From Pseudomonadota bacterium (lineage in GTDB: Bacteria; Pseudomonadota; Gammaproteobacteria; Burkholderiales; Burkholderiaceae_D), in assembly GCA_040390835.1 (NCBI GenBank), contig JAZJXP010000054.1, positions 13,121-77,120 on the forward strand: a DNA stretch of 64,000 nt. Direction: 5' to 3'. A program made the position numbers and the translations under genes. Each line of letters begins with the position of its first letter. The stretch's first letter is position 1. The notes under the pieces were generated by a model. That model saw nothing but the letters and a program-made list of their open reading frames with translations, was not told the origin of the DNA and searched no databases. Shown one piece after another: positions 1 to 54,363 of the stretch.

Positions 1-144
1 ATTTAATTAATTGCCTTAAAGGTAATAAATATTTTAAATCTTGTCACTTGTGCGCAGCAAAGCGACAAATGGGGTGTTGCCCTGATGCATCTGGCTTTTG
101 TTGCCAGAGGGATTGGATTACTATGCTTATAAACCCCAGGGGAC

Positions 145-2241
145 ATGATGAGACGCCTTATCAATACGCTACGCACCCTGAATTTTGCCTTGCTGCTGAT
201 AGCCCTGCCTCAGTTTGCCAGGGCAGATGAGCCGAGCAATGAAGAGGACCTGGCCCTGGTATATGGTGATAAATCTGTCATCAGTGTTGCCACAGGTTCA
301 GCTCTGCCTTTGCGCCGCGCCCCAGCAGTTGCTACCGTGATTACAGCCGCTGATATAGAAGCGACAGGTGCTACCAGTCTTGATGCCGTGATGGAAACCG
401 TACCGGGCTTGCATGTAGGACGCTCCACCGTATTGAATATGGCTATTTACACCATACGTGGGGTGCGCAGTGCGCTCAGTAATCCACAAGTACTGGTTCT
501 TATCAACGGCACACCGGTTACCAATGCCTATAGCGGTGACCGGGGATTTCTCTCTGCTGACATGCCGCTGGAAAATATCGCCAGGATAGAAGTCATCCGC
601 GGCCCTGGTTCTGCCCTGTATGGTGCCGATGCTTTTTCAGGCGTGATCAATATCGTCACCAAAACTGCCAAAGAACAGGAGGGTACGCGCTTTGGTATCA
701 GACTGGGCTCCTTCAACAGCCGTGACACCTGGGTTTTGCATGGGGGCAAATGGGGTGGCATTGACGTTGCAGCTTCTTTGCAGCATAGCCGCACTGCCGG
801 GCCGCGCGCCCTGGTTGAACGCGATGCGCAAAGCGGGTTTGACCAGTTATTTGGCACCCATGCTTCCCTGGCTCCAGGTTATGAAAATTTTAGTCGTGCC
901 GCTACTGATGGCAATCTGGAACTCGCTTACGAAAAGTGGAATCTGCATCTGGGTTTCATGCACAGGGAAAACATAGGCGCAGGCACTGGCATAGCCCAGG
1001 CACTGGACCCAAGCGGCTGGGGTAGCAGTCGTCGTTTTACCAGCGATTTGAAATACAAAGACCCGGATTTTGCCAAGGACTGGGGGCTGGAGTTGAATGG
1101 TAGTTTTACTTATTACAATGAAAATTCCAGTATCGTGATTTTTCCAGCAGGTGCTTTTGGCGGTGCCTTCAAGGATGGTTTTATCGGTAGCCCTTATCGC
1201 TGGGAAAGGCATGAAAGACTAAATTCTACCCTGCATTACAGTGGTTTTGTCCAGCATCATCTGCGCTTGGGGATAGGAGTATCAAAGGAAGATTTGTACA
1301 AGATACGCGAAACCAAAAATTTCAACCCTGATAATTCACCGATCAATGTTGGCGCTTTTTCTGACCTGGTAGATGTCACTGACACGGTTCCGTATATACG
1401 GCCACACAGCCGCTTGTTGAAGTATGTATATGTGCAGGATGAATGGCAATTTGCCAAGGACTGGACTTTGACTGCAGGCGTGCGGCGTGACCAGTATTCC
1501 GATTTTGGCAATACGACCAATCCCAGGCTGGCTCTGGTATGGGAAGTTGATTACAACCTGACCGCCAAGCTCTTGTACGGCAGTGCTTTTCGCGCCCCCG
1601 CTTTTGAAGAACTGTATGTGATCAACAATCCTGTCGTGAATGGTAACCCGGCGCTAAAGGCCGAAAGAATGCGCACCACTGAATTGGCGTTGAGCTGGCA
1701 AGCGCAACCCGGCTTGCAACTGGGTTTGAATCTGTTTCGTTATCAGATGTCCGACATCATTCGTATCAATAATAATTTTTTGAATGAAAATGGCGGCAGC
1801 CAGAGCGGCCGGGGCTTTGAACTGGAAGCCAGTTGGGATGCGCGCAAGAATTTGCGTCTGGCAGGCAATATTGCTTGTCAGCGCGCCATTGACGATATGA
1901 CACAAAAAGATCCGGGTTTGACGCCGCGACGCCACGCCTATGTGCGGGCAGACTGGCAGCCTGCCGCAGGATGGCGGGTAAATGCGCAAGTCAATTATGT
2001 GGCAGACCGCCAGCGTGAACCTGGTGATACCCGCCCGAATGTCAGGGATTACACCACCGTGGATTTGACACTGGGGACGAATAAAAAATATGCAGGCTGG
2101 GACTGGACTTTGGCAGTGCGTAATCTCTTGAATGCCGATGTGCGCGAACCTAGTCCCTATAGCACGCCATTTGTGAACATGCCAAATGATATACCCATGG
2201 GAGGGCGTTCAATATTTTTGCAATTTGGCTATAAGTTGTAA
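145..2241 (+). CDS. TonB-dependent outer-membrane receptor
   Basis: 698-aa ORF. It has a signal peptide (LLLIALPQFARA/DE) and plug-domain motifs (VITAADIEATGATSLDAVMETVPGL; IEVIRGPGSALYGADAFSGVINIVTK), followed by a long beta-barrel-like region rich in alternating Y/G/N/D. Substrate not inferable. Confidence 0.85.
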   Translation: MMRRLINTLRTLNFALLLIALPQFARADEPSNEEDLALVYGDKSVISVATGSALPLRRAPAVATVITAADIEATGATSLDAVMETVPGLHVGRSTVLNMAIYTIRGVRSALSNPQVLVLINGTPVTNAYSGDRGFLSADMPLENIARIEVIRGPGSALYGADAFSGVINIVTKTAKEQEGTRFGIRLGSFNSRDTWVLHGGKWGGIDVAASLQHSRTAGPRALVERDAQSGFDQLFGTHASLAPGYENFSRAATDGNLELAYEKWNLHLGFMHRENIGAGTGIAQALDPSGWGSSRRFTSDLKYKDPDFAKDWGLELNGSFTYYNENSSIVIFPAGAFGGAFKDGFIGSPYRWERHERLNSTLHYSGFVQHHLRLGIGVSKEDLYKIRETKNFNPDNSPINVGAFSDLVDVTDTVPYIRPHSRLLKYVYVQDEWQFAKDWTLTAGVRRDQYSDFGNTTNPRLALVWEVDYNLTAKLLYGSAFRAPAFEELYVINNPVVNGNPALKAERMRTTELALSWQAQPGLQLGLNLFRYQMSDIIRINNNFLNENGGSQSGRGFELEASWDARKNLRLAGNIACQRAIDDMTQKDPGLTPRRHAYVRADWQPAAGWRVNAQVNYVADRQREPGDTRPNVRDYTTVDLTLGTNKKYAGWDWTLAVRNLLNADVREPSPYSTPFVNMPNDIPMGGRSIFLQFGYKL

Positions 2242-2487
2242 AAATAACAGACGTATTTTACAAAGAATGGCAACCGCTTATCGGACGGACTGCACAGCTT
2301 CAAGAATTTCGATATAGGTGCGTGAGTAAATCTGTTAATGTTGATGGTTCAGTTGAAATACTGATGACGGCGGCGTAATAATTTTTTTTAAAAATAACAT
2401 GCGCTGTATTCGCTGCACTTGCGATATGTATTTAATAAGGATGAGTTGATCCTGTTAGTGAAAACCAGAGAAGGTATGAAACTTTAG

Positions 2488-3666
2488 ATGCTGGAAAACA
2501 GCGCCCTTTATTTTTTTGATATCCATGCTCCCAGTGCCAGTAAAAAAACTGACAGGAAGCCAGGGCTGTTTCAGCACGTCTGGTGGTTTTTCAATATCGC
2601 TTTTGGCATCATGGTTATATTTGCTAATCCAGTCAGCGCAGAACAACCCGCGTTGATGCCAGACTTGGCGATGTTGCAAAACCAGATGCCGCAAGTGCAT
2701 ACGCCGGCACTGGCTCAGGATTTACGCATGGGGCGTCGCTATGGCGAGCATCTGGTATTTGCCGATGCGGCAAGCCAGGGACGACGCCAGGATGTCATCA
2801 CGGGCGGCAGCCTGGCCGTACTGTATCCGGATATGGGCGAGCCTTACCGCAGTATTTTTGCCAAGATCATCGAAGGCATAGAGAGCAAGTCGCGCATGCC
2901 GGTGATAAGTATGCCGATAGGGCCCAAGCTGGAAACCGGGGATTTGAATGCGCAATTGAAACGCAATGGTGTCAAGGTCGTCATTGCCCTTGGCCGTCAG
3001 GGTGTCAAGCTGGCCAGTAGCCTTGACCGTGAGATTGCCGTGGTGGTTGGCGGGGTTTTGAATATCCCGGAGAGTGAAAGCCGCAGCATGACTGGTGTCA
3101 GCCTGATGCCTGACCCGGCACTGCTATTTTCACGCCTGAAAAGCCTGCTGCCAGGTGTCAAAAGAGTCATCGTCGTCTACGACCCCAAAAATAATGAATG
3201 GCTGATCAAGCTGGCCCGTGAAGCTGCCAAGCAACAGGGCCTGGAACTGGTGACGTATGAAGCCAGAGACCTGGCTGGCGCGGCCCATCAGTATGAAGTG
3301 GCCTTTGCCAATGCCGACAAGCGTGACGCTTTATGGTTGCCGCAAGATTCTACGACAGTTGAAGAGGGCAGTATCTTGCCGTTGGTGTTGCGTGAGTCAT
3401 GGAACCGTGGTGTCCCCTTCTTTTCCAGCAGTTTTCTGCATGCCAAAAAAGGGGCCTTGTTTGCTCTTTATCCAAATAATCTGGAATTAGGGCAGAGTCT
3501 GGCCATGGCTGCACAAAGCGCTGTGAGTGGTGATGGCCGCAAGTCCGGTGTGTCGCTATTGCGCGAAGTATTGGTGGCAGTGAATTTGCGTACTGCCAGC
3601 CACATAGGTTTGAATATTGATTATCAAAGCCAGAGAAGTTTTGATTCGATTTTCCCCGAGCCCTGA
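2488..3666 (+). CDS. Periplasmic ABC-type substrate-binding-like protein (COG2984 / ABC_sub_bind-like, from memory), orphan
   Basis: 392-aa ORF. An N-terminal basic stretch plus a hydrophobic segment ends in ANPVSA/EQ, which reads as a signal peptide. The alternating beta-alpha pattern (VLYPDMGEPYRSIFAKIIEGI ... VKVVIALGRQG ... RVIVVYDPKN) is typical of this binding-protein fold. No permease or ATPase gene is adjacent. Confidence 0.6.
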   Translation: MLENSALYFFDIHAPSASKKTDRKPGLFQHVWWFFNIAFGIMVIFANPVSAEQPALMPDLAMLQNQMPQVHTPALAQDLRMGRRYGEHLVFADAASQGRRQDVITGGSLAVLYPDMGEPYRSIFAKIIEGIESKSRMPVISMPIGPKLETGDLNAQLKRNGVKVVIALGRQGVKLASSLDREIAVVVGGVLNIPESESRSMTGVSLMPDPALLFSRLKSLLPGVKRVIVVYDPKNNEWLIKLAREAAKQQGLELVTYEARDLAGAAHQYEVAFANADKRDALWLPQDSTTVEEGSILPLVLRESWNRGVPFFSSSFLHAKKGALFALYPNNLELGQSLAMAAQSAVSGDGRKSGVSLLREVLVAVNLRTASHIGLNIDYQSQRSFDSIFPEP

Positions 3667-3848
3667 ATGAAACTGCGCAGGTGGGTATTGTCATGAACCT
3701 GCATGATGGAAAAGAAAGAAGAGAAGTGAACGAGCCAAGCATGTCATGCATTGATAAGGGTGCTGGCATGATCTTGAATATTCCGGGACATAGTGCTGTT
3801 CACCAATGCAGCTTGCGGGTGAGTGGCCATAAGTAATTTGGTTCAAGT

Positions 3849-6800
3849 ATGAAGTTTTTCAGTAACTACTTTCGCCGCACAGGTTTCAGTCTCCAGCTAA
3901 CGGTCATCATCACGGCCGCCATTCTGGTGCTGGCGCTTTTTTCTTCCATCATGAATTCATGGCAGGCCAGCCATCGCATGCGTGCCTATTTTGTCGTACA
4001 AGGCCAGCAAGTTGCAGAAAATCTGGCCCGCCAAAGCCGCCTGGCGCTGCTATACCACTCCGCAGACAACGCCAGGGAAGTTGTGGCGACGACCCTGGCT
4101 TTTCCTGATGTCCTGCAGGTAGAAATTGCCAATGCCGATCACAAGGTCTTGCTTTCACAAAGCAAGCCAGGTGTGGTTTTGCCACCCTTGAAAACTCATC
4201 CGGCCGGGCCATTGTCGAGTGCCAGGCTGGAACAGGAAAGTGATCAGGACTGGCGTTTCAGTGCCCCGGTGTTTGCCGGTGAAAGTGAAGCTTCCCCTTT
4301 TGAAGTACAGGAAAGCAAACCGCAATTGCTGGGCTATGTGCATGTGGTGGTCGGCAAGACAACGCTCGATAGACTGGTGTCATCTTTGTTGTTGGGCAAC
4401 CTTGGCATTAGCTTTTCATTCGCCCTGATATTGCTGGCCGTAATACGCCTGATGTCGCGGCAAATGATACGTCCGCTGAATCAGTTGTCTGCCCTCATGG
4501 GCCGGGCAGAGGCAGGTGAATCCGGCATGCGTGCCACGCCGGACGGGTCAAAAGACATCATAGAAATGTCGCATGCCTTTAACCAGATGATGGCGGTACT
4601 GGAAGACCGTGAGGCTGAACTCAAGCAATCACGTGATCAGGCCCTGCATGCAGCTGTCATGAAGGCGCAATTTGCTGCCACCGTCAGTCACGAAGTGCGT
4701 ACCCCTTTGAATGGCGTGGTGGGCATGCTCGACATGCTGAAAGAAATGCGCCTCACCAAAAGCCAGCGTGAATGTGTGGATGTGGCCTGGAATTCCTCTC
4801 AGGCCTTGATAGAACTGATCAATGACATCCTCGATTTTTCCAAGATGGAAGCAGGCAAGGTTGAAGTTGAAGAAATCGAATTTGACCTCAATAAACTAGT
4901 GGCCGAAGTACTGGAATTATTATCCAAATCGGCCCAGCAAAAAGGCCTGGAACTGGCTTATCTGGTCGCTGATGATGTGCCCTTGCGCGTCAAGAGCGAC
5001 CCACTGCGCTTACGCCAGATACTCATCAACCTGATTGGCAACGCGGTCAAGTTCACCGAACATGGTGAGATAGCAGTGCGCGTGGTGATGAGCCAGTACC
5101 ATGATCAGGCCGACCCGTCTTCCACGATGATGTTGCGCTTTGAAGTCAGTGATACCGGTATCGGCATGTCGGCAGATGCCGTCGCCAATGTGTTTGAATC
5201 TTTCGCCCAGGCAGACCGCTCAACTACCCGCAAATATGGCGGCACCGGCCTGGGGCTGGCAATCTGCAAGCAACTGGTGGCACTCTTGCATGGGGAAATC
5301 GGTGTCAGCAGCATGCCGGATCAGGGCAGTAATTTTTACTTCAGCATGCAATGTCATGCCAGCAGTACAGAAAAACCTGCGCTGAACAGTGCCAGTGCTG
5401 ATTTGCAGGATGAACGCATACTCATCGTTGACCCGAGTGAAGTAGTCCGCAGTTTCCTGCTGCAACAACTTTCCCGTCACGGCATGTCTTGCCATGCGGT
5501 TGCCAGTGGCGTGCAGGCTTTGGCTTTGCTGGATCAGGCTGCGAAAGATGGAGCGCCACATTCCCTGGTCATCATGGATGTTAGCAGCATGGATGACAAT
5601 GGTGAAGAACTGGCACGCCGCCTGGGCAATGATCATCGCTACAGCGGCATCCGCACTCTGGCGCTGGATCGGAATGGTTGTGTTGGTGAGGTTAATTCCT
5701 CCACTGCTGAAATTTGTCTGAGCAAGCCTGTACACATCGAAAAACTGCTGGAAGCCTTGCGTCATTTACTGCTGACCACAGCCCATGTGCAGACATCCGC
5801 TGCTGTAACTGCAACAGCAGTGACAACGACCGCGAGGGCACCTGCACACATGCCCGTCAGGAGTATGGAAGTGACACGTCATCCATCCAATGGTGGTCAT
5901 GTTGAATGGCGTGTACTGGTGGTCGAAGATAATCGCACCAATCAAATGGTGGCAGCAGGCATGCTCTCGCTTTCTGCCTGCCATTGCGAATTTGCAGGTA
6001 ATGGCAAGGAAGCTGTTGAAGCCGCCCGCCGTAACCGCTATGACCTGATACTCATGGATTGCAGCATGCCAGAAATGGATGGCTATGAAGCTACCGTCAG
6101 GATACGCAGTTATGAAGATGGCCTGGGCAGGCGCACGCCTATCGTGGCGATGACCGCCAATACCCAGCGCGGCGATGCCGAAAAATGCCTGGCGATAGGC
6201 ATGGATGATTATCTGGCCAAACCCATCACGCTGGTGGAATTGCGCCAGAAGCTGGAGCGCTGGCTCACCCATGGCGGCGCAGCAGGACGCGCACTGCCTT
6301 CAGACGGGCAATTGCAGCCACTCGACAATAGCCCGCTGGACCGTGCGGTGTTTGATAAATTGCGCGATATCCTTGGCCCAGGTTTACAACAGACCGTATC
6401 CCTGTTCCTGGAAGACACACCTGTCTATCTGGAGCAATTAAATCAGGGCTTGCAGCAAGGCGATGCTGAAATGGTGCGCGCCATGGCGCATTCCATCAAA
6501 GGCAGCAGTGGCAATCTGGGTGCCACTAATCTTTTGCAGTTCGCCAAAGAAGTTGAACAACTGGCGCTGGAACGGCATTTGTCAGAAATCACACCTTTAC
6601 TGAGCAGCCTGCATCAAGCTTATGAAGCAGTGGCTTCTGAATTGGGCAATGAAGTATTCCTGGAAGACCATGATGTCGTCAGCCACAGCCGCCATGTCGC
6701 TAAAGTGCTGGTGGTCGACGATGACCGCAGCACCCGCAGCACACTGCGTCATACCCTGCAAAGAGATGGCTTCAAAGTCGAGGAAGCTGCAGATGGTTCG

Positions 6801-8399
6801 CAAGCCTTGCTGATGCTCAAGCGCATGCGGCCTGATGTCATCCTCATGGATGCAGTCATGCCTGTCATGGATGGTTTTACCGCCTGCAGCCTGATACAGG
6901 AAATGCCACGTGGCCGCAGCATACCGGTGTTGATGATCACCGCACTGGAAGACAATAGTTCGGTAGAAAGAGCCTTTGCTGCCGGTGCCTCCGACTATAT
7001 CCCCAAGCCTATCCATTTCGCCGTACTGTCGCAGCGCGTGCGCCGCATCATAGAAGCGAATCAGGCGGAGAAACGCATACGCCATCTGGCCTTCAATGAT
7101 GTGCTGACGGGATTGCCGAACCGTACGCAATTCCTCGATCAACTGGGGCGTCGGTTGACCATGGCCAAGGAGAATGTTGAATCAGTGGCTGTGCTTTTCC
7201 TGGACCTGGACAGATTCAAGAACGTCAATGACACTCTCGGCCATGATGTTGGTGACCGCCTGTTGATCGCAGTCGCCCAGCGCATACGTCGCAGCGTACG
7301 TAATGCCGATTGCGTGGCACGACTGGGTGGCGATGAATTTACCGTGGTGCTGAGTGAGCTGGCTGACCCGGCTGCTGCGGCATCGGCTGCGCAAAATATC
7401 TGCCGCACCCTGGCCAAGCCTTTCCAGATAGATAGCCATGATATTTTCGTGACCGCCAGCATAGGTATTTCTGTTTATCCCAGTGATGGCATGGATGTAG
7501 GCACCCTGGTCAAACATGCAGATACCGCCATGTACCGCGCCAAGAAAACCAATACCGACTTTCAGTTTTTTGAAGCGGCGATGGAACATTCCATCTCTGA
7601 GCGGGTGCGACTGGAAAATGATTTACGCCGTGCATTGGAGCGTAATGAACTGGCAGTTTTCTATCAGCCCCAGGCACGCATGGACACTGGTGAGATCATC
7701 GGTACAGAGGCGTTGGTACGCTGGTTCCATCCTACCCGTGGCATGGTGTCACCGCTGGAATTCATCCCCATGGCAGAAGAAACCGGTCTGATTATTGCAC
7801 TCGGTGAATGGGTATTGCGCACGGCCTGCGCCCAGATGCGCAACTGGATGGATAAGGGCATGTCACATCTGCGGGTTGCCGTGAACTTGTCTGTCAGCCA
7901 GTTATTGCAAAAGGATTTTGCCAACACGGTAGAACAAGTCTTGTTCGACACTGGCCTGCCAGCAAAAATGCTGGAACTGGAAATTACTGAAAGCACGCTG
8001 ATGGAGCATGCGCAAGATACCCTGGCCATACTGGACCGCTTGCGTAGCCTTGGTGTCAGACTGACTATTGATGATTTTGGTACTGGCTATTCATCGCTGT
8101 CTTATCTGAAGCGCTTTCCTGTCGATATCATCAAGATAGACCGCTCCTTCGTGCGTGATATTCCCGGTGATGCCGATGATGCTGCCATCGTTACAGGCAT
8201 CATTGCACTGGCGCACAGCCTGAGGCTGGAAGTGGTGGCCGAAGGGGTGGAAACGCGCGAACAACTGGAATTTTTACGCGCTCAATCCTGCGATATCCTG
8301 CAAGGTTTCTATTTGAGTAAACCTATACCGGCGCAGCAGCTGGAAGATGAAATATTGTCGCAAGTGGGCAGCGTATTCCTGGATCAGACAGGTAAATAA
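3849..8399 (+). CDS. Hybrid sensor histidine kinase / response regulator / Hpt / diguanylate cyclase-phosphodiesterase (TM-periplasmic loop-TM-HAMP-HisKA-HATPase-REC-REC-Hpt-REC-GGDEF-EAL)
   Basis: 1516-aa ORF. Motifs read directly:
- H-box SHEVRTPLNG (His281, nt 4689-4691).
- N/G boxes NLIGNAVKFT and DTGIGM..GGTGLGL.
- Receiver-like domain 1, aa ~523-640 (ILIVDPSE..VIMD..LSKP).
- Receiver 2, aa ~688-805 (VLVVEDN..LILMDCSMPEMDG..AMTA..YLAKP).
- Hpt HSIKGSSGNLG (His881).
- Receiver 3, aa ~953-1068 (VLVVDDD..VILMDAVMPVMDG..YIPKP).
- GGDEF with an RNAD I-site five residues upstream.
- EAL motifs (EALVRW, DDFGTGYSSLSYL, KIDRSF, EGVET). Confidence 0.92.
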   Translation: MKFFSNYFRRTGFSLQLTVIITAAILVLALFSSIMNSWQASHRMRAYFVVQGQQVAENLARQSRLALLYHSADNAREVVATTLAFPDVLQVEIANADHKVLLSQSKPGVVLPPLKTHPAGPLSSARLEQESDQDWRFSAPVFAGESEASPFEVQESKPQLLGYVHVVVGKTTLDRLVSSLLLGNLGISFSFALILLAVIRLMSRQMIRPLNQLSALMGRAEAGESGMRATPDGSKDIIEMSHAFNQMMAVLEDREAELKQSRDQALHAAVMKAQFAATVSHEVRTPLNGVVGMLDMLKEMRLTKSQRECVDVAWNSSQALIELINDILDFSKMEAGKVEVEEIEFDLNKLVAEVLELLSKSAQQKGLELAYLVADDVPLRVKSDPLRLRQILINLIGNAVKFTEHGEIAVRVVMSQYHDQADPSSTMMLRFEVSDTGIGMSADAVANVFESFAQADRSTTRKYGGTGLGLAICKQLVALLHGEIGVSSMPDQGSNFYFSMQCHASSTEKPALNSASADLQDERILIVDPSEVVRSFLLQQLSRHGMSCHAVASGVQALALLDQAAKDGAPHSLVIMDVSSMDDNGEELARRLGNDHRYSGIRTLALDRNGCVGEVNSSTAEICLSKPVHIEKLLEALRHLLLTTAHVQTSAAVTATAVTTTARAPAHMPVRSMEVTRHPSNGGHVEWRVLVVEDNRTNQMVAAGMLSLSACHCEFAGNGKEAVEAARRNRYDLILMDCSMPEMDGYEATVRIRSYEDGLGRRTPIVAMTANTQRGDAEKCLAIGMDDYLAKPITLVELRQKLERWLTHGGAAGRALPSDGQLQPLDNSPLDRAVFDKLRDILGPGLQQTVSLFLEDTPVYLEQLNQGLQQGDAEMVRAMAHSIKGSSGNLGATNLLQFAKEVEQLALERHLSEITPLLSSLHQAYEAVASELGNEVFLEDHDVVSHSRHVAKVLVVDDDRSTRSTLRHTLQRDGFKVEEAADGSQALLMLKRMRPDVILMDAVMPVMDGFTACSLIQEMPRGRSIPVLMITALEDNSSVERAFAAGASDYIPKPIHFAVLSQRVRRIIEANQAEKRIRHLAFNDVLTGLPNRTQFLDQLGRRLTMAKENVESVAVLFLDLDRFKNVNDTLGHDVGDRLLIAVAQRIRRSVRNADCVARLGGDEFTVVLSELADPAAAASAAQNICRTLAKPFQIDSHDIFVTASIGISVYPSDGMDVGTLVKHADTAMYRAKKTNTDFQFFEAAMEHSISERVRLENDLRRALERNELAVFYQPQARMDTGEIIGTEALVRWFHPTRGMVSPLEFIPMAEETGLIIALGEWVLRTACAQMRNWMDKGMSHLRVAVNLSVSQLLQKDFANTVEQVLFDTGLPAKMLELEITESTLMEHAQDTLAILDRLRSLGVRLTIDDFGTGYSSLSYLKRFPVDIIKIDRSFVRDIPGDADDAAIVTGIIALAHSLRLEVVAEGVETREQLEFLRAQSCDILQGFYLSKPIPAQQLEDEILSQVGSVFLDQTGK

Positions 8400-8462
8400 A
8401 GTCAGGGGTTGTAGCAGTTTGCTGCAGTCTTGATAAAAATTATTAGAGACATGGATTGATCA

Positions 8463-10610
8463 ATGAGGGCTTGCATGTGGCAGCTTCAACTACCTAAATG
8501 GCACACCAGTCTGGTACTGGGTTTGCTGGCTATCGTCTTGCTATGCATGAACACGATGGCACATGCACAAACTAAGCCTCAACCTGATTTTTCTGAGATA
8601 GAAGCAATACATACGCTGTCTGACCGTGACAATACCGCAGCACTCAAACAACTGCAGGAATACAAAGACAAATTAGGCAAGGACGCAGATTATGTCTTGC
8701 GCGCCGAAGTCTTGAAGACGTTGATAGGCATCTTGTATGACGCTGGCAAGATCAAGGAAGCCGATGCCGCCAATACAGAGTTATTGCAATTGGCCAGGTC
8801 ACAAAAAGACAATGACATGATCAATATGGCTTTGTTGGGCGTAGCCTTTCAGATGCTGGATCAGGGCAAGTTTGCCATGGCACTGGTGAAGCTCAATGAT
8901 ATACAACAAAGTCTGCGTGACTCAAAAAATGCAGAAGTGCTCATGCGCCTGAATATCGCCTTCGGCATGGTGCAACTGGCGATAGGTAATTTTGATAAAT
9001 CCCTGCCGTATTTTCTTGAGGCGCTGAAGCTGGCAGATCAGATACCAAGACGGCGTGCCCAGGCCAAGATGTACCGCATGGAATCCATCGCCAGGTTGTA
9101 CCTGAATATGCATAACGCTGAAAAGGCTCTGGAAACCGCCAATGATGCATTGGCCATGCAACCTAAAATAGAGTCACCCAAGATAATTTCATCACTACAA
9201 ATGGCACGTGGCCTGGCCCTGATAGACCTGGGGCGCCATGATGAAGCCCTGGAAGCTTACAAGACAGTATTGCAGATATCCACGGAAGCTGGCATGCCTG
9301 CCGTGGCAGCAACAGCGCTGGGTAATATTGCTGACTATTACCTGCACGTGCGCAAGTTCGCCGAGGCTGAACGTGCGGCTCGTTTTTCATTGGAAAAAGC
9401 CCAGGCCGTGAATGACCCCTTTGCAATAGCTATCGCCAAAGCGAATATAGGTTTTGCCCTGGCTGGACAAAAGAAATTTTCCCAGGGGATAGGCTTCATC
9501 AACGAAGCCAAGAAGTTTTTCATGCAGACAGGCTCCAAGTCGGATGTGGAAAACCTGCTCAGTGAAATCGGTAATATGTATGAAGCCGCTGATATGTATA
9601 AAGAGGCGCTGGCAATCGTACGTGAGCAGCAAAAGCTCAGTGACGAATTATTCCGTTCTGACCGCGCGCGTGCCGTAGCGACCTTGCAAGAACAATTCAA
9701 TGCCCAGCAAAGACAAAAACAGATTGAATTGCTGGCGCGTGAAAATGAGCTCAAGGATGCCGACATCAAAAACCGCCAGTTGCAGCAAGTGGTGTTGATG
9801 CTGGCTGCCATCATCATGGTGATGGTGGGTGTGGTCGTCTTCTTCTTGTACAGACGGGTACGCAAGACCAATGAGAAATTGCGCGAAGTGAATGAACAAC
9901 TTGAATTTCATGCCGTGCGTGATCCCCTGACTGGTTTATATAACCGCCGCTCTTTCGTCGATATGATGAAGGGCAGGGCCATATTGCCGGAAGGTGAAAG
10001 ACGCGAAGATGCACTCGATAATCCAGACTGTTTAATCCTCATGGATATCGATCATTTTAAAAATATCAATGACAGCTTTGGTCATGCAACCGGTGATGCG
10101 GTGCTTATAGAAGTGGCACGCCGTTTGCGCAGTACAGTGCGCGACAGTGACATGGTGTTGCGCTGGGGTGGAGAAGAGTTTTTGATTTATTCCCCGCGCT
10201 CTAACTCTGCACAACTCAAGGGACTGGTAGAACGTATTTTGCGCAGCATAGGTGAACAGAACATCGAAGTCGAGGGAGCCAGCGTTCCTGTTACCCTGAC
10301 CGCAGGTTTCATCAGCCTGCCGTTTTCGGGCTTGCCAGAAGCAGTCTGTAATTGGGAAAAAGCCCTGCAAATTGCCGACATGGCACTCTATCTGGGCAAG
10401 GTCAATGGGCGTAATCGCGCCTATGGCGTCAGCAAATTATTGATTGCCTATGAAGAAGCCTTACCGGTGCTGGACCATGATTTATCAGCTGCCATCAAGG
10501 CAGGTATGGTCGAGTTGGTAGAAGTGCATGGGCCAGTGAAACTGCCAGAAAGCAATCTTGCCGCGTCGTCAACAGTGCAAGATGCGGAATTGGTCAGTGA
10601 CATCAAATAA
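8463..10610 (+). CDS. Diguanylate cyclase with N-terminal exported TPR-like domain (signal peptide-TPR-coiled coil-TM-GGDEF)
   Basis: 715-aa ORF. It has a signal peptide (LLAIVLLCMNTMAHA/Q) followed by about 400 aa of helical repeats with a TPR-like A/L/Y periodicity. A TM segment (VVLMLAAIIMVMVGVVVFFLY) precedes the GGDEF domain, which has an intact GGEEF and an RDSD I-site. Confidence 0.85.
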   Translation: MRACMWQLQLPKWHTSLVLGLLAIVLLCMNTMAHAQTKPQPDFSEIEAIHTLSDRDNTAALKQLQEYKDKLGKDADYVLRAEVLKTLIGILYDAGKIKEADAANTELLQLARSQKDNDMINMALLGVAFQMLDQGKFAMALVKLNDIQQSLRDSKNAEVLMRLNIAFGMVQLAIGNFDKSLPYFLEALKLADQIPRRRAQAKMYRMESIARLYLNMHNAEKALETANDALAMQPKIESPKIISSLQMARGLALIDLGRHDEALEAYKTVLQISTEAGMPAVAATALGNIADYYLHVRKFAEAERAARFSLEKAQAVNDPFAIAIAKANIGFALAGQKKFSQGIGFINEAKKFFMQTGSKSDVENLLSEIGNMYEAADMYKEALAIVREQQKLSDELFRSDRARAVATLQEQFNAQQRQKQIELLARENELKDADIKNRQLQQVVLMLAAIIMVMVGVVVFFLYRRVRKTNEKLREVNEQLEFHAVRDPLTGLYNRRSFVDMMKGRAILPEGERREDALDNPDCLILMDIDHFKNINDSFGHATGDAVLIEVARRLRSTVRDSDMVLRWGGEEFLIYSPRSNSAQLKGLVERILRSIGEQNIEVEGASVPVTLTAGFISLPFSGLPEAVCNWEKALQIADMALYLGKVNGRNRAYGVSKLLIAYEEALPVLDHDLSAAIKAGMVELVEVHGPVKLPESNLAASSTVQDAELVSDIK

Positions 10611-10686
10611 AGCACCTGAGTTTAAAAAAGTCGTATAATCTGCCGTCGTCGTGGTTCTGGAGCATTTCAGAACCCGAAGAAAAATG

Positions 10687-12775
<2,089 letters not shown>

Positions 12776-13097: not shown

Positions 13098-13463
13098 ATG
13101 AAAAACGCCGCCAACGAAAATTTAATCAAAACAGCAAAAGTTTTGCGTAAAAACATGACCGATGCCGAGAAAAAATTATGGCAAGGCTTGCGCGGTGATC
13201 AGCTAGGCGTAAAGTTCAGACGACAATATCCATATCAGCATTTTGTACTGGATTTTGTGTGCCTGGAAAAGCATCTGGTGATTGAAGTTGATGGTGGGCA
13301 GCACGCTGAAGCACAGGCATATGACATGCATAGAACTGAAGTGTTGAAGAAGGCAGGTTTTACCGTCTTACGTTTTTGGAATAATCAGGTACTTAATGAA
13401 ACCTCTGCTGTGATGGAAGATATCTGGCGGCATGTGACTCAAGAAGAAACTAAGGAAGACTGA
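13098..13463 (+). CDS. DUF559 (Vsr-like endonuclease fold) domain protein
   Basis: 121 aa. LRKNMTDAEKKLWQGLRG..GVKFRRQYPY..FVLDFVC..LVIEVDGGQH...LRFWNNQVLNE is the characteristic DUF559 pattern. Confidence 0.85.
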   Translation: MKNAANENLIKTAKVLRKNMTDAEKKLWQGLRGDQLGVKFRRQYPYQHFVLDFVCLEKHLVIEVDGGQHAEAQAYDMHRTEVLKKAGFTVLRFWNNQVLNETSAVMEDIWRHVTQEETKED

Positions 13464-51996: not shown

Positions 51997-54363
51997 GTGA
52001 CTGTTTTTCAATTCATCCGCAGTAATTTTATGGCGAACTCTTCGGCACTGGGGGAAACCCATCAGTGGCGCGAGCAGGTGTTGTCGGCCATCCTGTTTTT
52101 TGTACTCGCGCTGGGTGGCGCAACTGCCATACCCAGCATTGTGCTAGCAATCAGTGAAAACCTGTGGTCGGTCGTGGTGGTAGATATTTTTGCCCTGGCC
52201 TGGGTCGCCACTGTCTGGCGTTTGCCTTTTTTGAACTATCAGCAGCGCGCCTGGAATTTTTTACTCTTCCTGTATTTGCTGGGTGTCTGGTTCCTCATCA
52301 AGGTGGGCCTGACGGGCTTGATTTATTTGCTGGCTTTTCCGGTGCTGACCTCTTTGCTGCTGAATATGCGGCTATCCATGCTGGCTTTGATATTGTCTTC
52401 CGTCAGCTTGCTGGTGGTGGGCTATATATCTGATTCCAATTTGCATGTCTATGGCTTTGATTCCCACCCCTTCATGCAACTGGTGGTGGTGACCATCAAC
52501 TTCAGCTTTATTGCTGCCGTCATGTCCATCTCTTGCGGTGTGTTGTTGCAAAGGCTGGACAGTTCACTCGAACATCAGCGCGTCATCACCGCTTCGCTGC
52601 AGCATGGGCAAACTTCATTGAAGGCCGCTAACGAAGAATTGCGCCTGATTGTTGCCGCCGTGGCGCGCCTGAATGACATTGTCATGATCATCAAGGTGGA
52701 TATTGATGTAATAGGAAAACGCCGCCTGAAAATCGTCTTTGTGAATGACGCTTTCGTGCGTCAGACGGGTTTCAAAAGCGAGGACGTGATAGACAAATCG
52801 CCCGTTTTTTTGCAGGGCCCGCGTACCCAGGCAGATGAACTCGACAAACTCAATCAGGCGCTGCTGTCTTACGAATCAGTACACATAGAATTGATTTGCT
52901 ATACCCATGACGGTAGTGAATTCTGGATGGAAGCCGACGTCGTGCCACTGGCCGATGATCAAGGCCTGTTCAGTCACTGGGTTGCCACCGGACGCGATAT
53001 CAGCGACCGTAAAAAAGCCCAGGAACATATACACAGGCTGGCCTATTTTGATGTATTGACGGGCTTGCCTAACCGCCGCCTGTTGCTGGACCGCATGAGT
53101 ATCTTGCTGGCGACAGCAAGGCGCAGCAATATGGTCAGTGCCATTCTCTTTATTGATCTTGATCACTTCAAATACATCAATGATGCACGTGGTCATGCGG
53201 TGGGCGATGCCTTGCTGAACCTCGTCGCACAAAGACTGAGCGGCAGCCTGCGTGAGGTGGATACGGTTGCCCATATTGGTGGCGATGAATTCGTCGTCAT
53301 GCTCTGTCACATTTCCAATAATGTGGCGGCCGGTGCCCATGCTGCGCAGGCCGTGGCAGAAAAAATCCGTCATTCGATATCGCAATTTTTTGATATCAAT
53401 GGCCTGCAATACAGCACCACCTGCAGCATAGGCGTGACCCTGTTACCGCGTGAAAACCAGAATTCACACGACTTGCTGCGTGAGGCTGACACTGCCATGT
53501 ACCGTGCCAAGAGCAGTGGCCGCAATCAAATCGCCTTTTACGAAACCGGCATGCAAACTGAGGTCGAGCAAAGACTGACCATGGAAAGGGAATTGGGTGA
53601 AGCCATCTCTGGCGGACATTTGCACATGTACATACAGGCCCAGGTAGACCGTTTGGGTAAACCCGTCGGCGGTGAAATGCTGATGCGCTGGATACATCCT
53701 GAGCGCGGCTTTATCTCACCCGCTTTATTCATACCGGTGGCAGAAGAATCAGGCATGATCTTGCGTCTGGGGGACTGGGTCATGGAACAGGGCTGCCTGG
53801 CCCTGCTGCAATTGCAGGAGGCAGGTTGGGACATCCCCTTGTCAGTCAATGTCAGCCCCAAGCAATTCCGCCAACCGGATTTTGTTGAAAAAGTCAGACG
53901 CGTATTGCGTTACACTGGCGCACCACCAACACGCCTGATACTGGAAGTGACAGAAGGCCTGCTCATCGACAACCTGCAAGACACCATCGCCCGTATGCTG
54001 GAATTGACGACCCTGGGCATACGCTTTTCCATCGACGATTTTGGTACCGGCTATTCCAGTCTCGCTTACCTCAAGCGACTACCTTTGTATGAACTCAAGA
54101 TAGACAAGAGCTTTGTGCAAGATACGCCGGGTGATGCGAATGGCACGGCCATCGTGCAGTCCATTTTATCGATGGCATCGCACCTGGGTTTGCGCGTCGT
54201 TGCAGAGGGGGTAGAGACCAAAGAGCAGGCAGAATTCCTGATCGCCAATGGCTGCGCATCCATGCAAGGCTTCCTGTTCGCCAGACCCATGCCACTGGAT
54301 AAATGGCTGGCTTTGCAGCAGCAGATAGAGCAGTCAGGGAAAGAGAGTAGCAGGGTGGTTTAG
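51997..54363 (+). CDS. Membrane sensor with PAS-GGDEF-EAL domains
   Basis: About 6 N-terminal TM segments and a PAS-like region (FVNDAFVRQTGFKSEDVIDKS...W....V.P). The GGDEF has an REVD I-site. The EAL domain carries EMLMRW, DDFGTGYSSLAYL, KIDKSF and EGVET. Confidence 0.88.
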   Translation: MTVFQFIRSNFMANSSALGETHQWREQVLSAILFFVLALGGATAIPSIVLAISENLWSVVVVDIFALAWVATVWRLPFLNYQQRAWNFLLFLYLLGVWFLIKVGLTGLIYLLAFPVLTSLLLNMRLSMLALILSSVSLLVVGYISDSNLHVYGFDSHPFMQLVVVTINFSFIAAVMSISCGVLLQRLDSSLEHQRVITASLQHGQTSLKAANEELRLIVAAVARLNDIVMIIKVDIDVIGKRRLKIVFVNDAFVRQTGFKSEDVIDKSPVFLQGPRTQADELDKLNQALLSYESVHIELICYTHDGSEFWMEADVVPLADDQGLFSHWVATGRDISDRKKAQEHIHRLAYFDVLTGLPNRRLLLDRMSILLATARRSNMVSAILFIDLDHFKYINDARGHAVGDALLNLVAQRLSGSLREVDTVAHIGGDEFVVMLCHISNNVAAGAHAAQAVAEKIRHSISQFFDINGLQYSTTCSIGVTLLPRENQNSHDLLREADTAMYRAKSSGRNQIAFYETGMQTEVEQRLTMERELGEAISGGHLHMYIQAQVDRLGKPVGGEMLMRWIHPERGFISPALFIPVAEESGMILRLGDWVMEQGCLALLQLQEAGWDIPLSVNVSPKQFRQPDFVEKVRRVLRYTGAPPTRLILEVTEGLLIDNLQDTIARMLELTTLGIRFSIDDFGTGYSSLAYLKRLPLYELKIDKSFVQDTPGDANGTAIVQSILSMASHLGLRVVAEGVETKEQAEFLIANGCASMQGFLFARPMPLDKWLALQQQIEQSGKESSRVV

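What the first reader, a model, noticed from the sequence alone, without database searches (positions are those of the whole stretch)
145..8399. TonB-dependent receptor plus orphan periplasmic binding protein wired to a c-di-GMP mega-sensor, with no transporter genes
Three same-strand genes lie in a row: an outer-membrane TonB-dependent receptor, a periplasmic ABC-type binding protein, and a membrane sensor. The sensor has only a ~140-aa periplasmic loop, between TM1 (aa ~14-36) and TM2 (aa ~180-200).

No ABC permease or ATPase gene is anywhere nearby. The binding protein is therefore unlikely to serve transport.

By analogy with LuxP/LuxQ, TorT/TorS and ChvE/VirA, it may dock on the kinase loop. 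Under that model, a ligand imported or gated by the TonB-dependent receptor would be read out as c-di-GMP turnover. I recall that COG2984-type binding proteins are often found next to signalling genes, but to my knowledge the ligand and mechanism of this three-gene arrangement have not been characterised.
Basis: partly seen in the sequence, partly recalled or inferred. Interest (0 to 1): 0.62.

Follow-up and report, generated by a model that had tools for sequence, protein, structure and literature searches.

The report
Outer-membrane-to-c-di-GMP sensing cassette
Three adjacent genes in an Undibacterium genome (an outer-membrane import receptor, a periplasmic binding protein with no transporter, and a giant membrane kinase that makes and breaks c-di-GMP) belong to a widespread, barely studied sensing cassette, and this genome keeps the sensing half but has lost the three enzyme genes that accompany it in relatives.

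Summary
Window 145-2241 encodes a TonB-dependent receptor (TBDR). 2488-3666 encodes a PF04392 binding protein (SBP). 3849-8399 encodes a 1516-aa sensor: TM, sCache_4, TM, HAMP, kinase, REC, Hpt, REC, GGDEF, EAL. The 64-kb window holds no ABC ATPase, and the contig holds no cognate-type permease.

The decayed-transporter reading is rejected. Of 92 PF04392 loci from 72 gammaproteobacterial families, 52 adjoin an sCache_4/HAMP sensor, 38 of those with a TBDR. Only 12 adjoin an ABC ATPase. The same genome carries an old paralogous triad with a GGDEF output.

- The "loop" is a folded Cache/PDC domain.
- Orthologous loci also carry a TPP enzyme and two citryl-CoA-lyase-like genes. Distant relatives encode the kinase and a REC-GGDEF-EAL protein separately. 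Undibacterium lacks the enzyme genes.
- The TBDR is degraded or absent in 4 of 11 Undibacterium species, while SBP and sensor stay under strong purifying selection. SBP-sensor is therefore the core and the TBDR an accessory.

A TBDR-to-SBP-to-kinase relay was published once (PahS/PahP/PahK, 2023). I could not test homology to it. Ligand and interaction are inferred. Verdict: new variant of a known kind.

The parts
145..2241 (+). TonB-dependent receptor, 698 aa: signal peptide, Plug (aa 56-167), 22-strand-type barrel. No STN signalling extension.
   Evidence: Pfam. Orthologous to the cassette TBDRs of Pontibacterium and Malonomonas (444 and 478 bits) against 98 bits to the genome's own paralogue. 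dN/dS 0.07-0.10 against congeners.
2328..2347 (+). Conserved 20-nt element AAATCTGTTAATGTTGATGG in the TBDR-SBP spacer, 141 nt before the SBP start. Candidate promoter or operator of the SBP-sensor unit.
   Evidence: Invariant block in an alignment of 10 Undibacterium loci, including the TBDR-less L011. Its 14-nt core is in L005-L013 and in no other locus held. Unique in the window and in the 6.7-Mb genome at up to 3 mismatches. Function not tested.
2488..3666 (+). Orphan periplasmic binding protein, 392 aa: leader, about 55 aa of disordered linker, and a two-lobe type-I PBP core (aa ~105-392), PF04392.
   Evidence: Pfam. AlphaFold core pLDDT above 90; Foldseek best hits 3lft, 3lkv and CD0873. 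Lies in a 99%-supported clade of enzyme-linked, sensor-linked SBPs. Core dN/dS 0.02-0.04.
3849..8399 (+). 1516-aa membrane sensor: a complete H1-D1-H2-D2 phosphorelay fused to GGDEF-EAL.
   Evidence: Pfam and NCBIfam. Motifs H281, N/G1/G2 boxes, Hpt H881, GGDEF 1160 with RxxD at 1151, EAL 1287, DDFGTG 1408.
3987..4358 (+). Periplasmic sCache_4 (PDC-like) domain, aa 47-170, between TM1 (~12-36) and TM2 (~178-202). Proposed docking site for the SBP.
   Evidence: PF09984 E 1.1e-5. Model and Foldseek hits to WalK, CdgS9/LapD-like and CitA sensor domains. dN/dS 0.03-0.05. 40 of 51 SBP-adjacent sensors across families carry PF09984.
4449..5348 (+). HAMP (aa 201-252), HisKA (271-336) and HATPase_c (384-500): transmitter.
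5415..5768 (+). First receiver-like stretch (about aa 523-640; boundaries approximate). Lacks the usual acidic pair (VDPSE). Evolves faster than the rest.
   Evidence: Sequence. dN/dS 0.12-0.22 for aa 505-690.
5913..7040 (+). REC (about aa 689-805), Hpt (850-930) and REC (953-1064): intramolecular phosphorelay.
7092..8324 (+). GGDEF (aa 1082-1235, I-site present) and EAL (1257-1492): c-di-GMP output.
   Evidence: dN/dS 0.01-0.03.
8463..10610 (+). Signal peptide, periplasmic TPR region, TM, GGEEF cyclase (715 aa), 64 nt downstream of the sensor. Possible operon partner; belonging to the cassette is uncertain.
   Evidence: Pfam. Motifs and TM segments. Follows the sensor in all 11 Undibacterium loci and in none of the other orthologous loci.

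Best explanation
The three genes are the input side of a conserved, envelope-spanning sensing cassette.

Inferred chain: the TonB-energised receptor admits a specific small molecule, not yet identified, into the periplasm. The transporter-less PF04392 binding protein captures it and docks on the sensor's periplasmic sCache_4 domain. The signal passes through HAMP to the kinase. Phosphate then runs H281 -> REC -> Hpt H881 -> REC within the same polypeptide. The last receiver sets the balance between the GGDEF cyclase and the EAL phosphodiesterase, and so the c-di-GMP level.

Shown by comparison: the SBP-sensor pair is the invariant core. The TBDR is a frequent but dispensable front end. In relatives the cassette also holds a TPP-dependent, acetolactate-synthase-like enzyme and two citryl-CoA-lyase-like proteins, which probably make or process the ligand. 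Distant relatives carry the kinase and a REC-PAS-GGDEF-EAL protein as separate genes, so this 1516-aa protein is a fusion of the two.

Undibacterium has lost the enzyme genes. Here the cassette is therefore a receiver-only version, most likely reading a compound made by other organisms.
For: Anatomy.

No transporter. The genome has only two PF04392 genes, and both sit in TBDR-SBP-sCache_4 triads.

Module conservation:
- 53 of 53 full-length orthologous Burkholderiales loci keep the SBP next to the sensor.
- In one-genome-per-family sampling of Gammaproteobacteria, 52 of 92 PF04392 loci (45 genomes) adjoin an sCache_4/HAMP sensor. 38 of these have a TBDR within 6.5 kb, 27 directly upstream. Only 12 are ATPase-linked.
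- 40 of 51 adjacent sensors hit PF09984 and 48 of 51 hit HAMP.

Co-inheritance: TBDR, SBP and sensor N-terminus each score far higher against Pontibacterium or Malonomonas cassette proteins than against the in-genome paralogous triad. In the SBP tree the window protein sits in a 99%-supported clade of 25, of which 16 have the enzymes nearby.

Fusion evidence: four distant loci show SBP, HK (sCache_4), TBDR, two CCL-like genes, a TPP enzyme and REC-PAS-GGDEF-EAL.

Enzyme loss: no CCL homologue in the 99.35%-complete genome, only ~30%-identical TPP enzymes, and none in 11 Undibacterium loci.

Folds: the SBP is a two-lobe PBP nearest 3lft and 3lkv. The sensor domain is PDC/Cache-like, nearest WalK, LapD-like and CitA domains.

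Selection: SBP core dN/dS 0.02-0.04, sensor periplasmic domain 0.03-0.05, TBDR 0.07-0.10.

Precedent: PahS-PahP-PahK binding and two-hybrid data (PMC10570129).
Against: - No physical evidence of SBP-sensor or TBDR-SBP contact for these proteins, and no complex model could be run.
- The ligand is unknown.
- The TBDR is degraded or absent in 4 of 11 Undibacterium species with no relaxation of SBP or sensor. It is not within 10 kb in 15 two-SBP loci. TBDR gating is therefore not obligatory.
- Gaps of 246 and 182 nt, plus a conserved element before the SBP, suggest the TBDR may be transcribed separately.
- Homology to PahP and PahK is unverified, and the PahSPK authors state that PahK has no periplasmic sensor domain.
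- With the enzymes absent, what this genome senses is open.
Confidence: 0.65

Rival explanations
1. Only SBP and sensor form the signalling unit. The TBDR is an ordinary nutrient importer that is merely co-located, or is a target of regulation. The ligand reaches the periplasm through porins.
For: The TBDR is lost or degraded in 4 of 11 Undibacterium species while SBP and sensor stay under dN/dS below 0.1. 14 of 52 sensor-type loci in the class sample, and 15 two-SBP Oxalobacteraceae loci, have no TBDR within reach. The 246-nt spacer holds its own conserved element.
Against: A TBDR is present in 38 of 52 sensor-type loci, 27 of them directly upstream with overlaps or gaps of tens of nt. The TBDR tracks the SBP clade across phyla (444-478 bits against 98 bits to the paralogue). 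The paralogous triad has overlapping stop and start codons. Several TBDR-less loci are cut by contig ends.
Confidence: 0.2
2. Decayed or split ABC importer: the SBP still delivers substrate to a permease and ATPase encoded elsewhere, and the neighbouring sensor is coincidental.
For: PF04392 is named for ABC transporters. The nearest solved structures are amino-acid-binding transport SBPs. The genome has 31 BPD_transp_2 permeases.
Against: No ATPase in 64 kb and no permease on either contig. Transport-type PF04392 proteins form separate branches and score 115-349 bits against Pfam, compared with 51 bits here. SBP-sensor adjacency holds in 53 of 53 orthologous loci, with no adjacent ATPase.
Confidence: 0.04
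3. The SBP acts without a small ligand, as a periplasmic partner or inhibitor of the sensor. In this model it would report envelope state, or TBDR occupancy by direct protein contact, as YfiR does for YfiN or as proposed for apo-PahP bound to PahS.
For: The nearest structural neighbours of the sensor domain include domains that bind proteins (WalK with YycH, the LapD-like output domain). The PahSPK paper reports apo-PahP bound to PahS. Undibacterium keeps the pair without the enzymes.
Against: The SBP keeps a full two-lobe PBP fold, with 11 invariant and about 50 nearly invariant positions shared across beta-, gamma- and Desulfuromonadales members. That pattern is typical of a conserved ligand pocket. 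Enzyme genes co-occur in 16 of 25 clade members.
Confidence: 0.1

Closest known systems
PahS / PahP / PahK (with PahR) of Cycloclasticus sp. P1 (Wang et al., iScience 2023, PMC10570129)
   Same: Same gene order and sizes: TBDR (687 aa), periplasmic SBP (318 aa), membrane histidine kinase. The SBP has no transporter. The published model is the same as proposed here: ligand passes the TBDR, is taken by the SBP, and the SBP docks on the kinase (SPR, two-hybrid, co-IP, FRET).
   Different: - Output there is a separate GacA-type regulator; here it is an intramolecular relay to GGDEF-EAL.
- The authors say PahK has no periplasmic sensor domain; here there is an sCache_4 domain.
- No enzyme trio is described there.
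- Sequence homology could not be tested, because no Cycloclasticus sequence was reachable. The one pahS primer pair printed in the paper brackets an FMO-like monooxygenase gene in metagenome contigs.
NspS/MbaA (Vibrio cholerae) and ScrB/ScrC (V. parahaemolyticus)
   Same: A transporter-independent periplasmic binding protein, encoded next to a membrane GGDEF-EAL protein, controls c-di-GMP (reviewed in PMC8050422).
   Different: Different SBP families (SBP_bac_8, SBP_bac_3) and dCache-like sensor domains. They have no TBDR, no kinase or phosphorelay, and no linked enzymes.
LuxP/LuxQ and TorT/TorS
   Same: A type-I PBP docks on the periplasmic domain of a hybrid histidine kinase. LuxP-LuxQ (2hj9) appears among the fold neighbours of the SBP model.
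   Different: Unrelated SBP families and sensor domains, no outer-membrane receptor, and transcriptional output.
BarA/GacS-type hybrid kinases
   Same: Architecture sCache_4, HAMP, HisKA, HATPase, REC, Hpt. The NCBIfam BarA model scores 512 bits.
   Different: The score is below the BarA cut-off of 890. This protein has an extra REC-GGDEF-EAL. No SBP partner is known for BarA or GacS.
FecA/FecR/FecI-type cell-surface signalling
   Same: A TonB-dependent receptor stands at the start of a signalling path.
   Different: No N-terminal signalling domain on the TBDR, and no anti-sigma or ECF sigma genes nearby. The relay runs through an SBP and a kinase instead.

Membership tests
PF04392 (ABC_sub_bind) binding-protein family | Match to the Pfam model above the gathering score, and a two-lobe type-I PBP fold | tested here: met
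   51.3 bits against a cut-off of 25.9. Model core pLDDT above 90; Foldseek 3lft E 2e-16 and 3lkv E 7e-16.
ABC importer (functional SBP-permease-ATPase unit) | Permease and ATPase genes in the same operon or neighbourhood | tested here: not met
   No ATPase ORF in 64 kb. No BPD_transp_2 on contig C54 or C3. No adjacent ATPase in the orthologous loci.
PahS/PahP/PahK-type three-tier sensor | Gene cluster TBDR, transporter-less periplasmic SBP, membrane histidine kinase | tested here: met
   Recurs in 38 of 52 sensor-type loci across families.
PahS/PahP/PahK-type three-tier sensor | Sequence homology of SBP, TBDR and kinase to PahP, PahS and PahK | not testable with these tools
   No Cycloclasticus sequence could be fetched. 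The PahP residue signature was not found in any protein held. The primer route failed.
PahS/PahP/PahK-type three-tier sensor | Kinase without a periplasmic sensor domain, and a separate GacA-type response regulator (as the authors describe) | tested here: not met
   An sCache_4 domain is present. The output is a fused REC-GGDEF-EAL.
PahS/PahP/PahK-type three-tier sensor | Physical SBP-kinase and SBP-TBDR binding, modulated by ligand | not testable with these tools
   Needs biochemistry or a complex prediction. Only single chains could be folded.
TonB-dependent transducer (FecA-type cell-surface signalling) | N-terminal STN signalling domain, plus anti-sigma and ECF sigma genes | tested here: not met
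   The Plug starts at aa 56 and there is no STN hit. No sigma or anti-sigma genes among the neighbours.
BarA/GacS equivalog | Score above the NCBIfam equivalog cut-off | tested here: not met
   NF008318 scores 511.7 bits against a cut-off of 890. The architecture is similar, but this is not an orthologue.
Catalytically competent GGDEF-EAL protein | GG(D/E)EF with RxxD I-site; EAL, DDFGTG, KxD and EGVE motifs | tested here: met
   All are present at aa 1151-1164, 1287, 1408, 1429 and 1465. Enzyme activity itself was not tested.

The most novel reading that the evidence does not exclude
In most relatives the cassette is a make-import-sense circuit. The TPP enzyme and the two citryl-CoA-lyase-like proteins would synthesise an undescribed small diffusible molecule, either a signal or a metal-binding carboxylate. 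That molecule would be re-imported through the dedicated TBDR and read by the SBP-sensor pair as c-di-GMP. Undibacterium, having lost the enzymes and in some species the TBDR, would be a listener-only lineage that reads the compound made by neighbouring bacteria.
Probability: 0.25. Interest if true: 0.8.

Novelty: new variant of a known kind. Interest (0 to 1): 0.6.

Why it matters
PF04392 proteins are annotated almost everywhere as ABC transporter parts. In the sample taken here, most of them in Gammaproteobacteria sit beside signalling proteins instead, so the family is widely mis-described.

The cassette would link what crosses the outer membrane directly to c-di-GMP, the main switch between motile and biofilm life. 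It occurs in roughly a fifth of sampled gammaproteobacterial families and beyond.

It also offers a concrete handle on two open questions:
- What GacS/BarA-type sCache_4 sensor domains actually detect. Here the answer would be a loaded binding protein.
- What small molecule the conserved enzyme trio makes.

The enzyme-less Undibacterium version, with relatives at successive stages of TBDR loss, is a natural series for asking which parts are needed for sensing.

Tried and rejected
1. Testing whether PahP, PahS and PahK belong to these families.
- The paper holds no sequences and no supplements as text.
- Scanning every protein and ORF held for the published PahP pocket residues (Y42, L135, A210, Y215, F237, L254) found nothing.
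- The only printed pahS primers hit 13 metagenome contigs exactly. Together they bracket a ~500-aa FMO-like monooxygenase gene flanked by dehydrogenase, hydrolase and FadL-like genes, not a TBDR. They are probably carried over from another study.
- Naming sampled genomes through cluster look-ups gave only unnamed MAGs.

3. Literature searches for COG2984, PF04392, the enzyme combination, and TBDR plus diguanylate cyclase found no description of this cassette.

4. Promoter and terminator scans gave counts at chance level, so nothing can be said from them about co-transcription.

6. My first greedy gene caller picked antisense shadow ORFs in GC-rich loci. I replaced it with an all-ORF, hit-based map.

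7. Decayed transporter and FecA-type signalling were considered and rejected (see membership tests).
Full report
**Observation**

- 145-2241 encodes a 698-aa TonB-dependent receptor (TBDR) with Plug and barrel and no N-terminal signalling domain.
- 2488-3666 encodes a 392-aa PF04392 (ABC_sub_bind) protein. It has a hydrophobic leader ending VSA|EQ, then about 55 poorly conserved residues.
- 3849-8399 encodes a 1516-aa protein with TM segments at about aa 12-36 and 178-202. Its domains are sCache_4 (47-170), HAMP, HisKA, HATPase_c, three receiver stretches, Hpt, GGDEF and EAL.
- All catalytic and phospho-acceptor motifs are intact: H281, N/G1/G2 boxes, Hpt H881, GGDEF with an RxxD I-site, EAL, DDFGTG and EGVE.
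- The first receiver-like stretch lacks the acidic pair and evolves faster than the rest.

**No transporter**

- The window is G000:C54:13121-77120 of a 99.35%-complete, 6.7-Mb genome.
- The closest named relatives are Undibacterium species.
- The 13 kb upstream hold valS, DUF2147, an SBP_bac_3 protein, a kinase and others, but no permease or ATPase.
- No ORF in the entire 64-kb window matches an ABC ATPase seed.
- The genome's 31 BPD_transp_2 permeases all lie on other contigs.

**A second triad in the same genome**

PF04392 matches only twice in the genome. The second copy (L004, contig C3) is again TBDR (705 aa), SBP (332 aa) and an sCache_4-HAMP-GGDEF sensor (442 aa). The stops and starts overlap, and the triad sits between dnaE and glnS.

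The three pairs of proteins are only 24-28% identical. The whole triad is therefore an old, co-duplicated or separately acquired module with exchangeable outputs.

**Close orthologues**

A peptide-pattern scan of species-representative genomes found 567 relatives. The best 80 are all Burkholderiales, at 50% identity or more.

| Loci | n | sCache_4-type sensor next to SBP | ~1500-aa fused sensor | Full-length cassette TBDR | CCL-like genes | TPP enzyme |
|---|---|---|---|---|---|---|
| Orthologous loci with at least 18 kb | 53 | 53 | 52 | 34 | 30 | 34 |
| Undibacterium (subset) | 11 | 11 | 11 | 7 | 0 | 0 |

An ABC ATPase lies somewhere within 10 kb in 6 of the 53 loci and is never adjacent.

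The 15 full-length loci without a TBDR within 10 kb (Massilia, Pseudoduganella, Rugamonas, Janthinobacterium and unnamed MAGs) all carry two tandem SBP paralogues before the sensor.

**TBDR decay within Undibacterium**

tblastn of the window TBDR against the 11 Undibacterium loci gave:
- seven intact genes;
- one with aa 234-489 deleted plus a frameshift (L007);
- one with the same deletion plus further frameshifts (L009);
- one with only a C-terminal remnant (L015);
- one with nothing (L011).

These are at least three independent losses. SBP and sensor stay full length in all eleven.

**Selection**

| Region | dN/dS against congeners |
|---|---|
| TBDR (where intact) | 0.07-0.10 |
| SBP folded core | 0.02-0.04 |
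| Sensor periplasmic domain | 0.03-0.05 |
| GGDEF-EAL | 0.01-0.03 |

The SBP and sensor values are the same in the TBDR-less species. The SBP-sensor pair is therefore the constrained core. The TBDR is functional here but dispensable in the lineage.

**Distant members and the enzyme trio**

I searched with a Pontibacterium homologue and read four contexts: Pontibacterium, a Neptunomonas-like genome, Aliikangiella, and Malonomonas of the Desulfuromonadales.

- Three of the four show the full set: SBP, a ~530-aa kinase with sCache_4/HAMP, a TBDR, two ~270-aa proteins, a ~600-aa TPP enzyme and a ~835-aa REC-PAS-GGDEF-EAL protein.
- The Neptunomonas-like locus lacks the two 270-aa genes within the stretch read.
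- The 270-aa proteins are citryl-CoA-lyase-like, below all curated cut-offs.
- The TPP enzyme is acetolactate-synthase-like, with no equivalog.
- The same trio lies just upstream of the TBDR in Noviherbaspirillum, Collimonas and other orthologous loci (TPP E about 1e-150 to the Pontibacterium enzyme).

Two consequences follow.
- The window's 1516-aa protein is a fusion of what elsewhere are a kinase and its REC-GGDEF-EAL partner. This independently ties the SBP-adjacent kinase to a c-di-GMP output.
- The window's genome has no citryl-CoA-lyase-like homologue at all, and only ~30%-identical TPP enzymes. Undibacterium therefore keeps the sensing half and has lost the enzyme half.

**Breadth, and the transporter question**

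Pfam PF04392 was searched in 201 gammaproteobacterial genomes, essentially one per family. It matched in 73. I fetched 20 kb around 92 matches and mapped domains with seed searches.

| Neighbour of the PF04392 gene | Loci | Genomes |
|---|---|---|
| sCache_4/HAMP-type sensor | 52 | 45 |
| GGDEF/EAL protein without that N-terminus | 14 | 12 |
| ABC ATPase within 3 kb | 12 | 12 |
| Other | 14 | not tallied |

- Of the 52 sensor-type loci, 38 have a TBDR within 6.5 kb, 27 directly upstream, and 12 have citryl-CoA-lyase-like genes.
- Pfam confirmed sCache_4 in 40, and HAMP in 48, of the 51 sensor N-termini aligned.
- Transport-type proteins score 115-349 bits against PF04392, with one exception. 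Sensor-type proteins mostly score 25-65 bits.

In a FastTree of 91 SBPs:
- the window protein lies in a 99%-supported clade of 25, of which 16 have the enzymes nearby;
- the paralogue lies in a different group of 27 (TBDR, SBP, kinase-REC, no enzymes; support 89);
- most of the ABC-linked proteins (10 of 11) group apart from both.

**Co-inheritance of the three parts**

| Part | Against Pontibacterium / Malonomonas cassette proteins | Against the in-genome paralogue |
|---|---|---|
| TBDR | 444 / 478 bits | 98 bits |
| SBP | 206 / 190 bits | 21 bits |
| Sensor N-terminus | 90 / 108 bits | 38 bits |

All three parts have therefore travelled together since before the two clades split.

**Structures**

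- The SBP model (103-sequence alignment; mean pLDDT 81.5, core above 90) is a two-lobe type-I binding protein.
- Its nearest solved structures are the Trp-, Phe- and Tyr-binding PF04392 proteins 3lft, 3lkv and CD0873.
- Residues 1-105 are disordered.
- Eleven invariant and about fifty nearly invariant positions are shared from Undibacterium to Desulfuromonadales members. This argues for one conserved ligand type in this clade.
- The sensor model (aa 1-290, pLDDT 92.9) shows TM1 continuing into a long helix, a five-strand PDC/Cache sheet, TM2 and HAMP.
- The sensor's best fold matches are WalK, the LapD-like CdgS9 periplasmic domain and CitA.

No complex could be predicted with the tools at hand.

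**Regulation**

- No Rfam element precedes any of the three genes. The only hit is the TPP riboswitch before thiC.
- Promoter and terminator scans are at chance level.
- The TBDR-SBP spacer holds an invariant 20-nt block, AAATCTGTTAATGTTGATGG (2328-2347).
- That block is conserved in the aligned Undibacterium loci, including the TBDR-less L011.
- It is unique in the genome, and its 14-nt core is absent from all other loci held.
- SBP and sensor therefore probably have their own control region. Co-transcription with the TBDR is not established.

**What is known**

- A review of SBP-activated receptors lists no PF04392 protein and no sCache_4 sensor (PMC8050422).
- One paper describes the same three-tier layout: PahS (TBDR, 687 aa), PahP (SBP, 318 aa) and PahK (kinase, 771 aa) of Cycloclasticus sp. 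P1.
- That paper reports SPR, two-hybrid, co-IP and FRET evidence that the ligand passes from PahS to PahP, and that loaded PahP binds PahK (PMC10570129).
- I could not obtain those sequences, so homology is unproven.
- The pahS primers printed in that paper match a monooxygenase gene, not a TBDR, in 13 metagenome contigs.
- Earlier notes of this scan reach similar readings for other genomes. I treat them as leads only. The enzyme trio and the layout were re-derived here from data.

**Mechanism and confidence**

- Shown: gene content, intact motifs, folds, absence of a transporter, conservation and co-inheritance of the parts, fusion versus split forms, enzyme loss, TBDR decay, purifying selection.
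- Inferred: the TBDR admits the ligand; the SBP binds it and docks on the sCache_4 domain; the phosphorelay sets the cyclase/phosphodiesterase balance; the enzymes make or process the ligand; Undibacterium reads an exogenous compound.

I put 0.65 on the overall model. That breaks down as about 0.85 on SBP-sensor pairing with a c-di-GMP output, and about 0.6 on the TBDR being the ligand gate in this genome.

**Verdict**

The feature is real, conserved and functional. It is a new variant (sCache_4 sensor, c-di-GMP phosphorelay output, enzyme-less receiver form) of a kind reported once before and otherwise unstudied.

Noticed in passing
L004 (G000:C3:86000-103235) 7157-11600: A second, paralogous triad in the same genome: TBDR (705 aa), PF04392 SBP (332 aa) and an sCache_4-HAMP-GGDEF sensor (442 aa). 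Stops and starts overlap, and it sits between dnaE and glnS.
   Followed up: yes
window 2328-2347: An invariant 20-nt element, AAATCTGTTAATGTTGATGG, upstream of the SBP gene. It contains three imperfect TGTTRA-like repeats. It is unique in the genome and conserved across Undibacterium species, including those without the TBDR.
   Followed up: partly
window 8463-10610: Signal peptide, periplasmic TPR region, TM and GGEEF cyclase with I-site, 64 nt after the sensor. It is a constant neighbour in Undibacterium only.
   Followed up: partly
window 10679-10780: A TPP riboswitch (61.5 bits) ahead of thiC. The listed thiC ORF start (GTG at 10718) lies inside the riboswitch, so the true start must be further downstream.
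   Followed up: no
window 13098-13463: A DUF559 / REase-like 121-aa gene sits between thiC and the thiG region.
   Followed up: no
window 51997-54363: Another GGDEF-EAL protein (788 aa) in the same window, unrelated to the cassette.
   Followed up: no
L003 (G000:C54:1-13300) 72-4397: A 1441-aa ORF with no Pfam match at all, running off the contig start.
   Followed up: no
L101, L104, L106, L108, L118, L122, L125, L133, L159 and others: A separate class of orphan PF04392 proteins sits directly before ~800-1100-aa GGDEF-EAL proteins that lack the sCache_4-type N-terminus. It was seen in 14 loci from 12 gammaproteobacterial families. Some of these SBPs score as high as transport types against Pfam (137-170 bits).
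   Followed up: partly
L188 5266-6909 (-), and L186-L198: The 'Tn7-pahSf/r' primers printed in PMC10570129 match both ends of a ~500-aa FMO-like monooxygenase gene in marine metagenome contigs. They do not match a TonB-dependent receptor. This is probably a carry-over error in the paper.
   Followed up: yes
L173 (G041:C1:3401631-3421431): A cassette copy in which the TBDR, the citryl-CoA-lyase-like genes and the TPP enzyme all appear split into fragments, while the SBP and kinase ORFs are intact. This looks like a second case of decay of the non-sensor parts.
   Followed up: no
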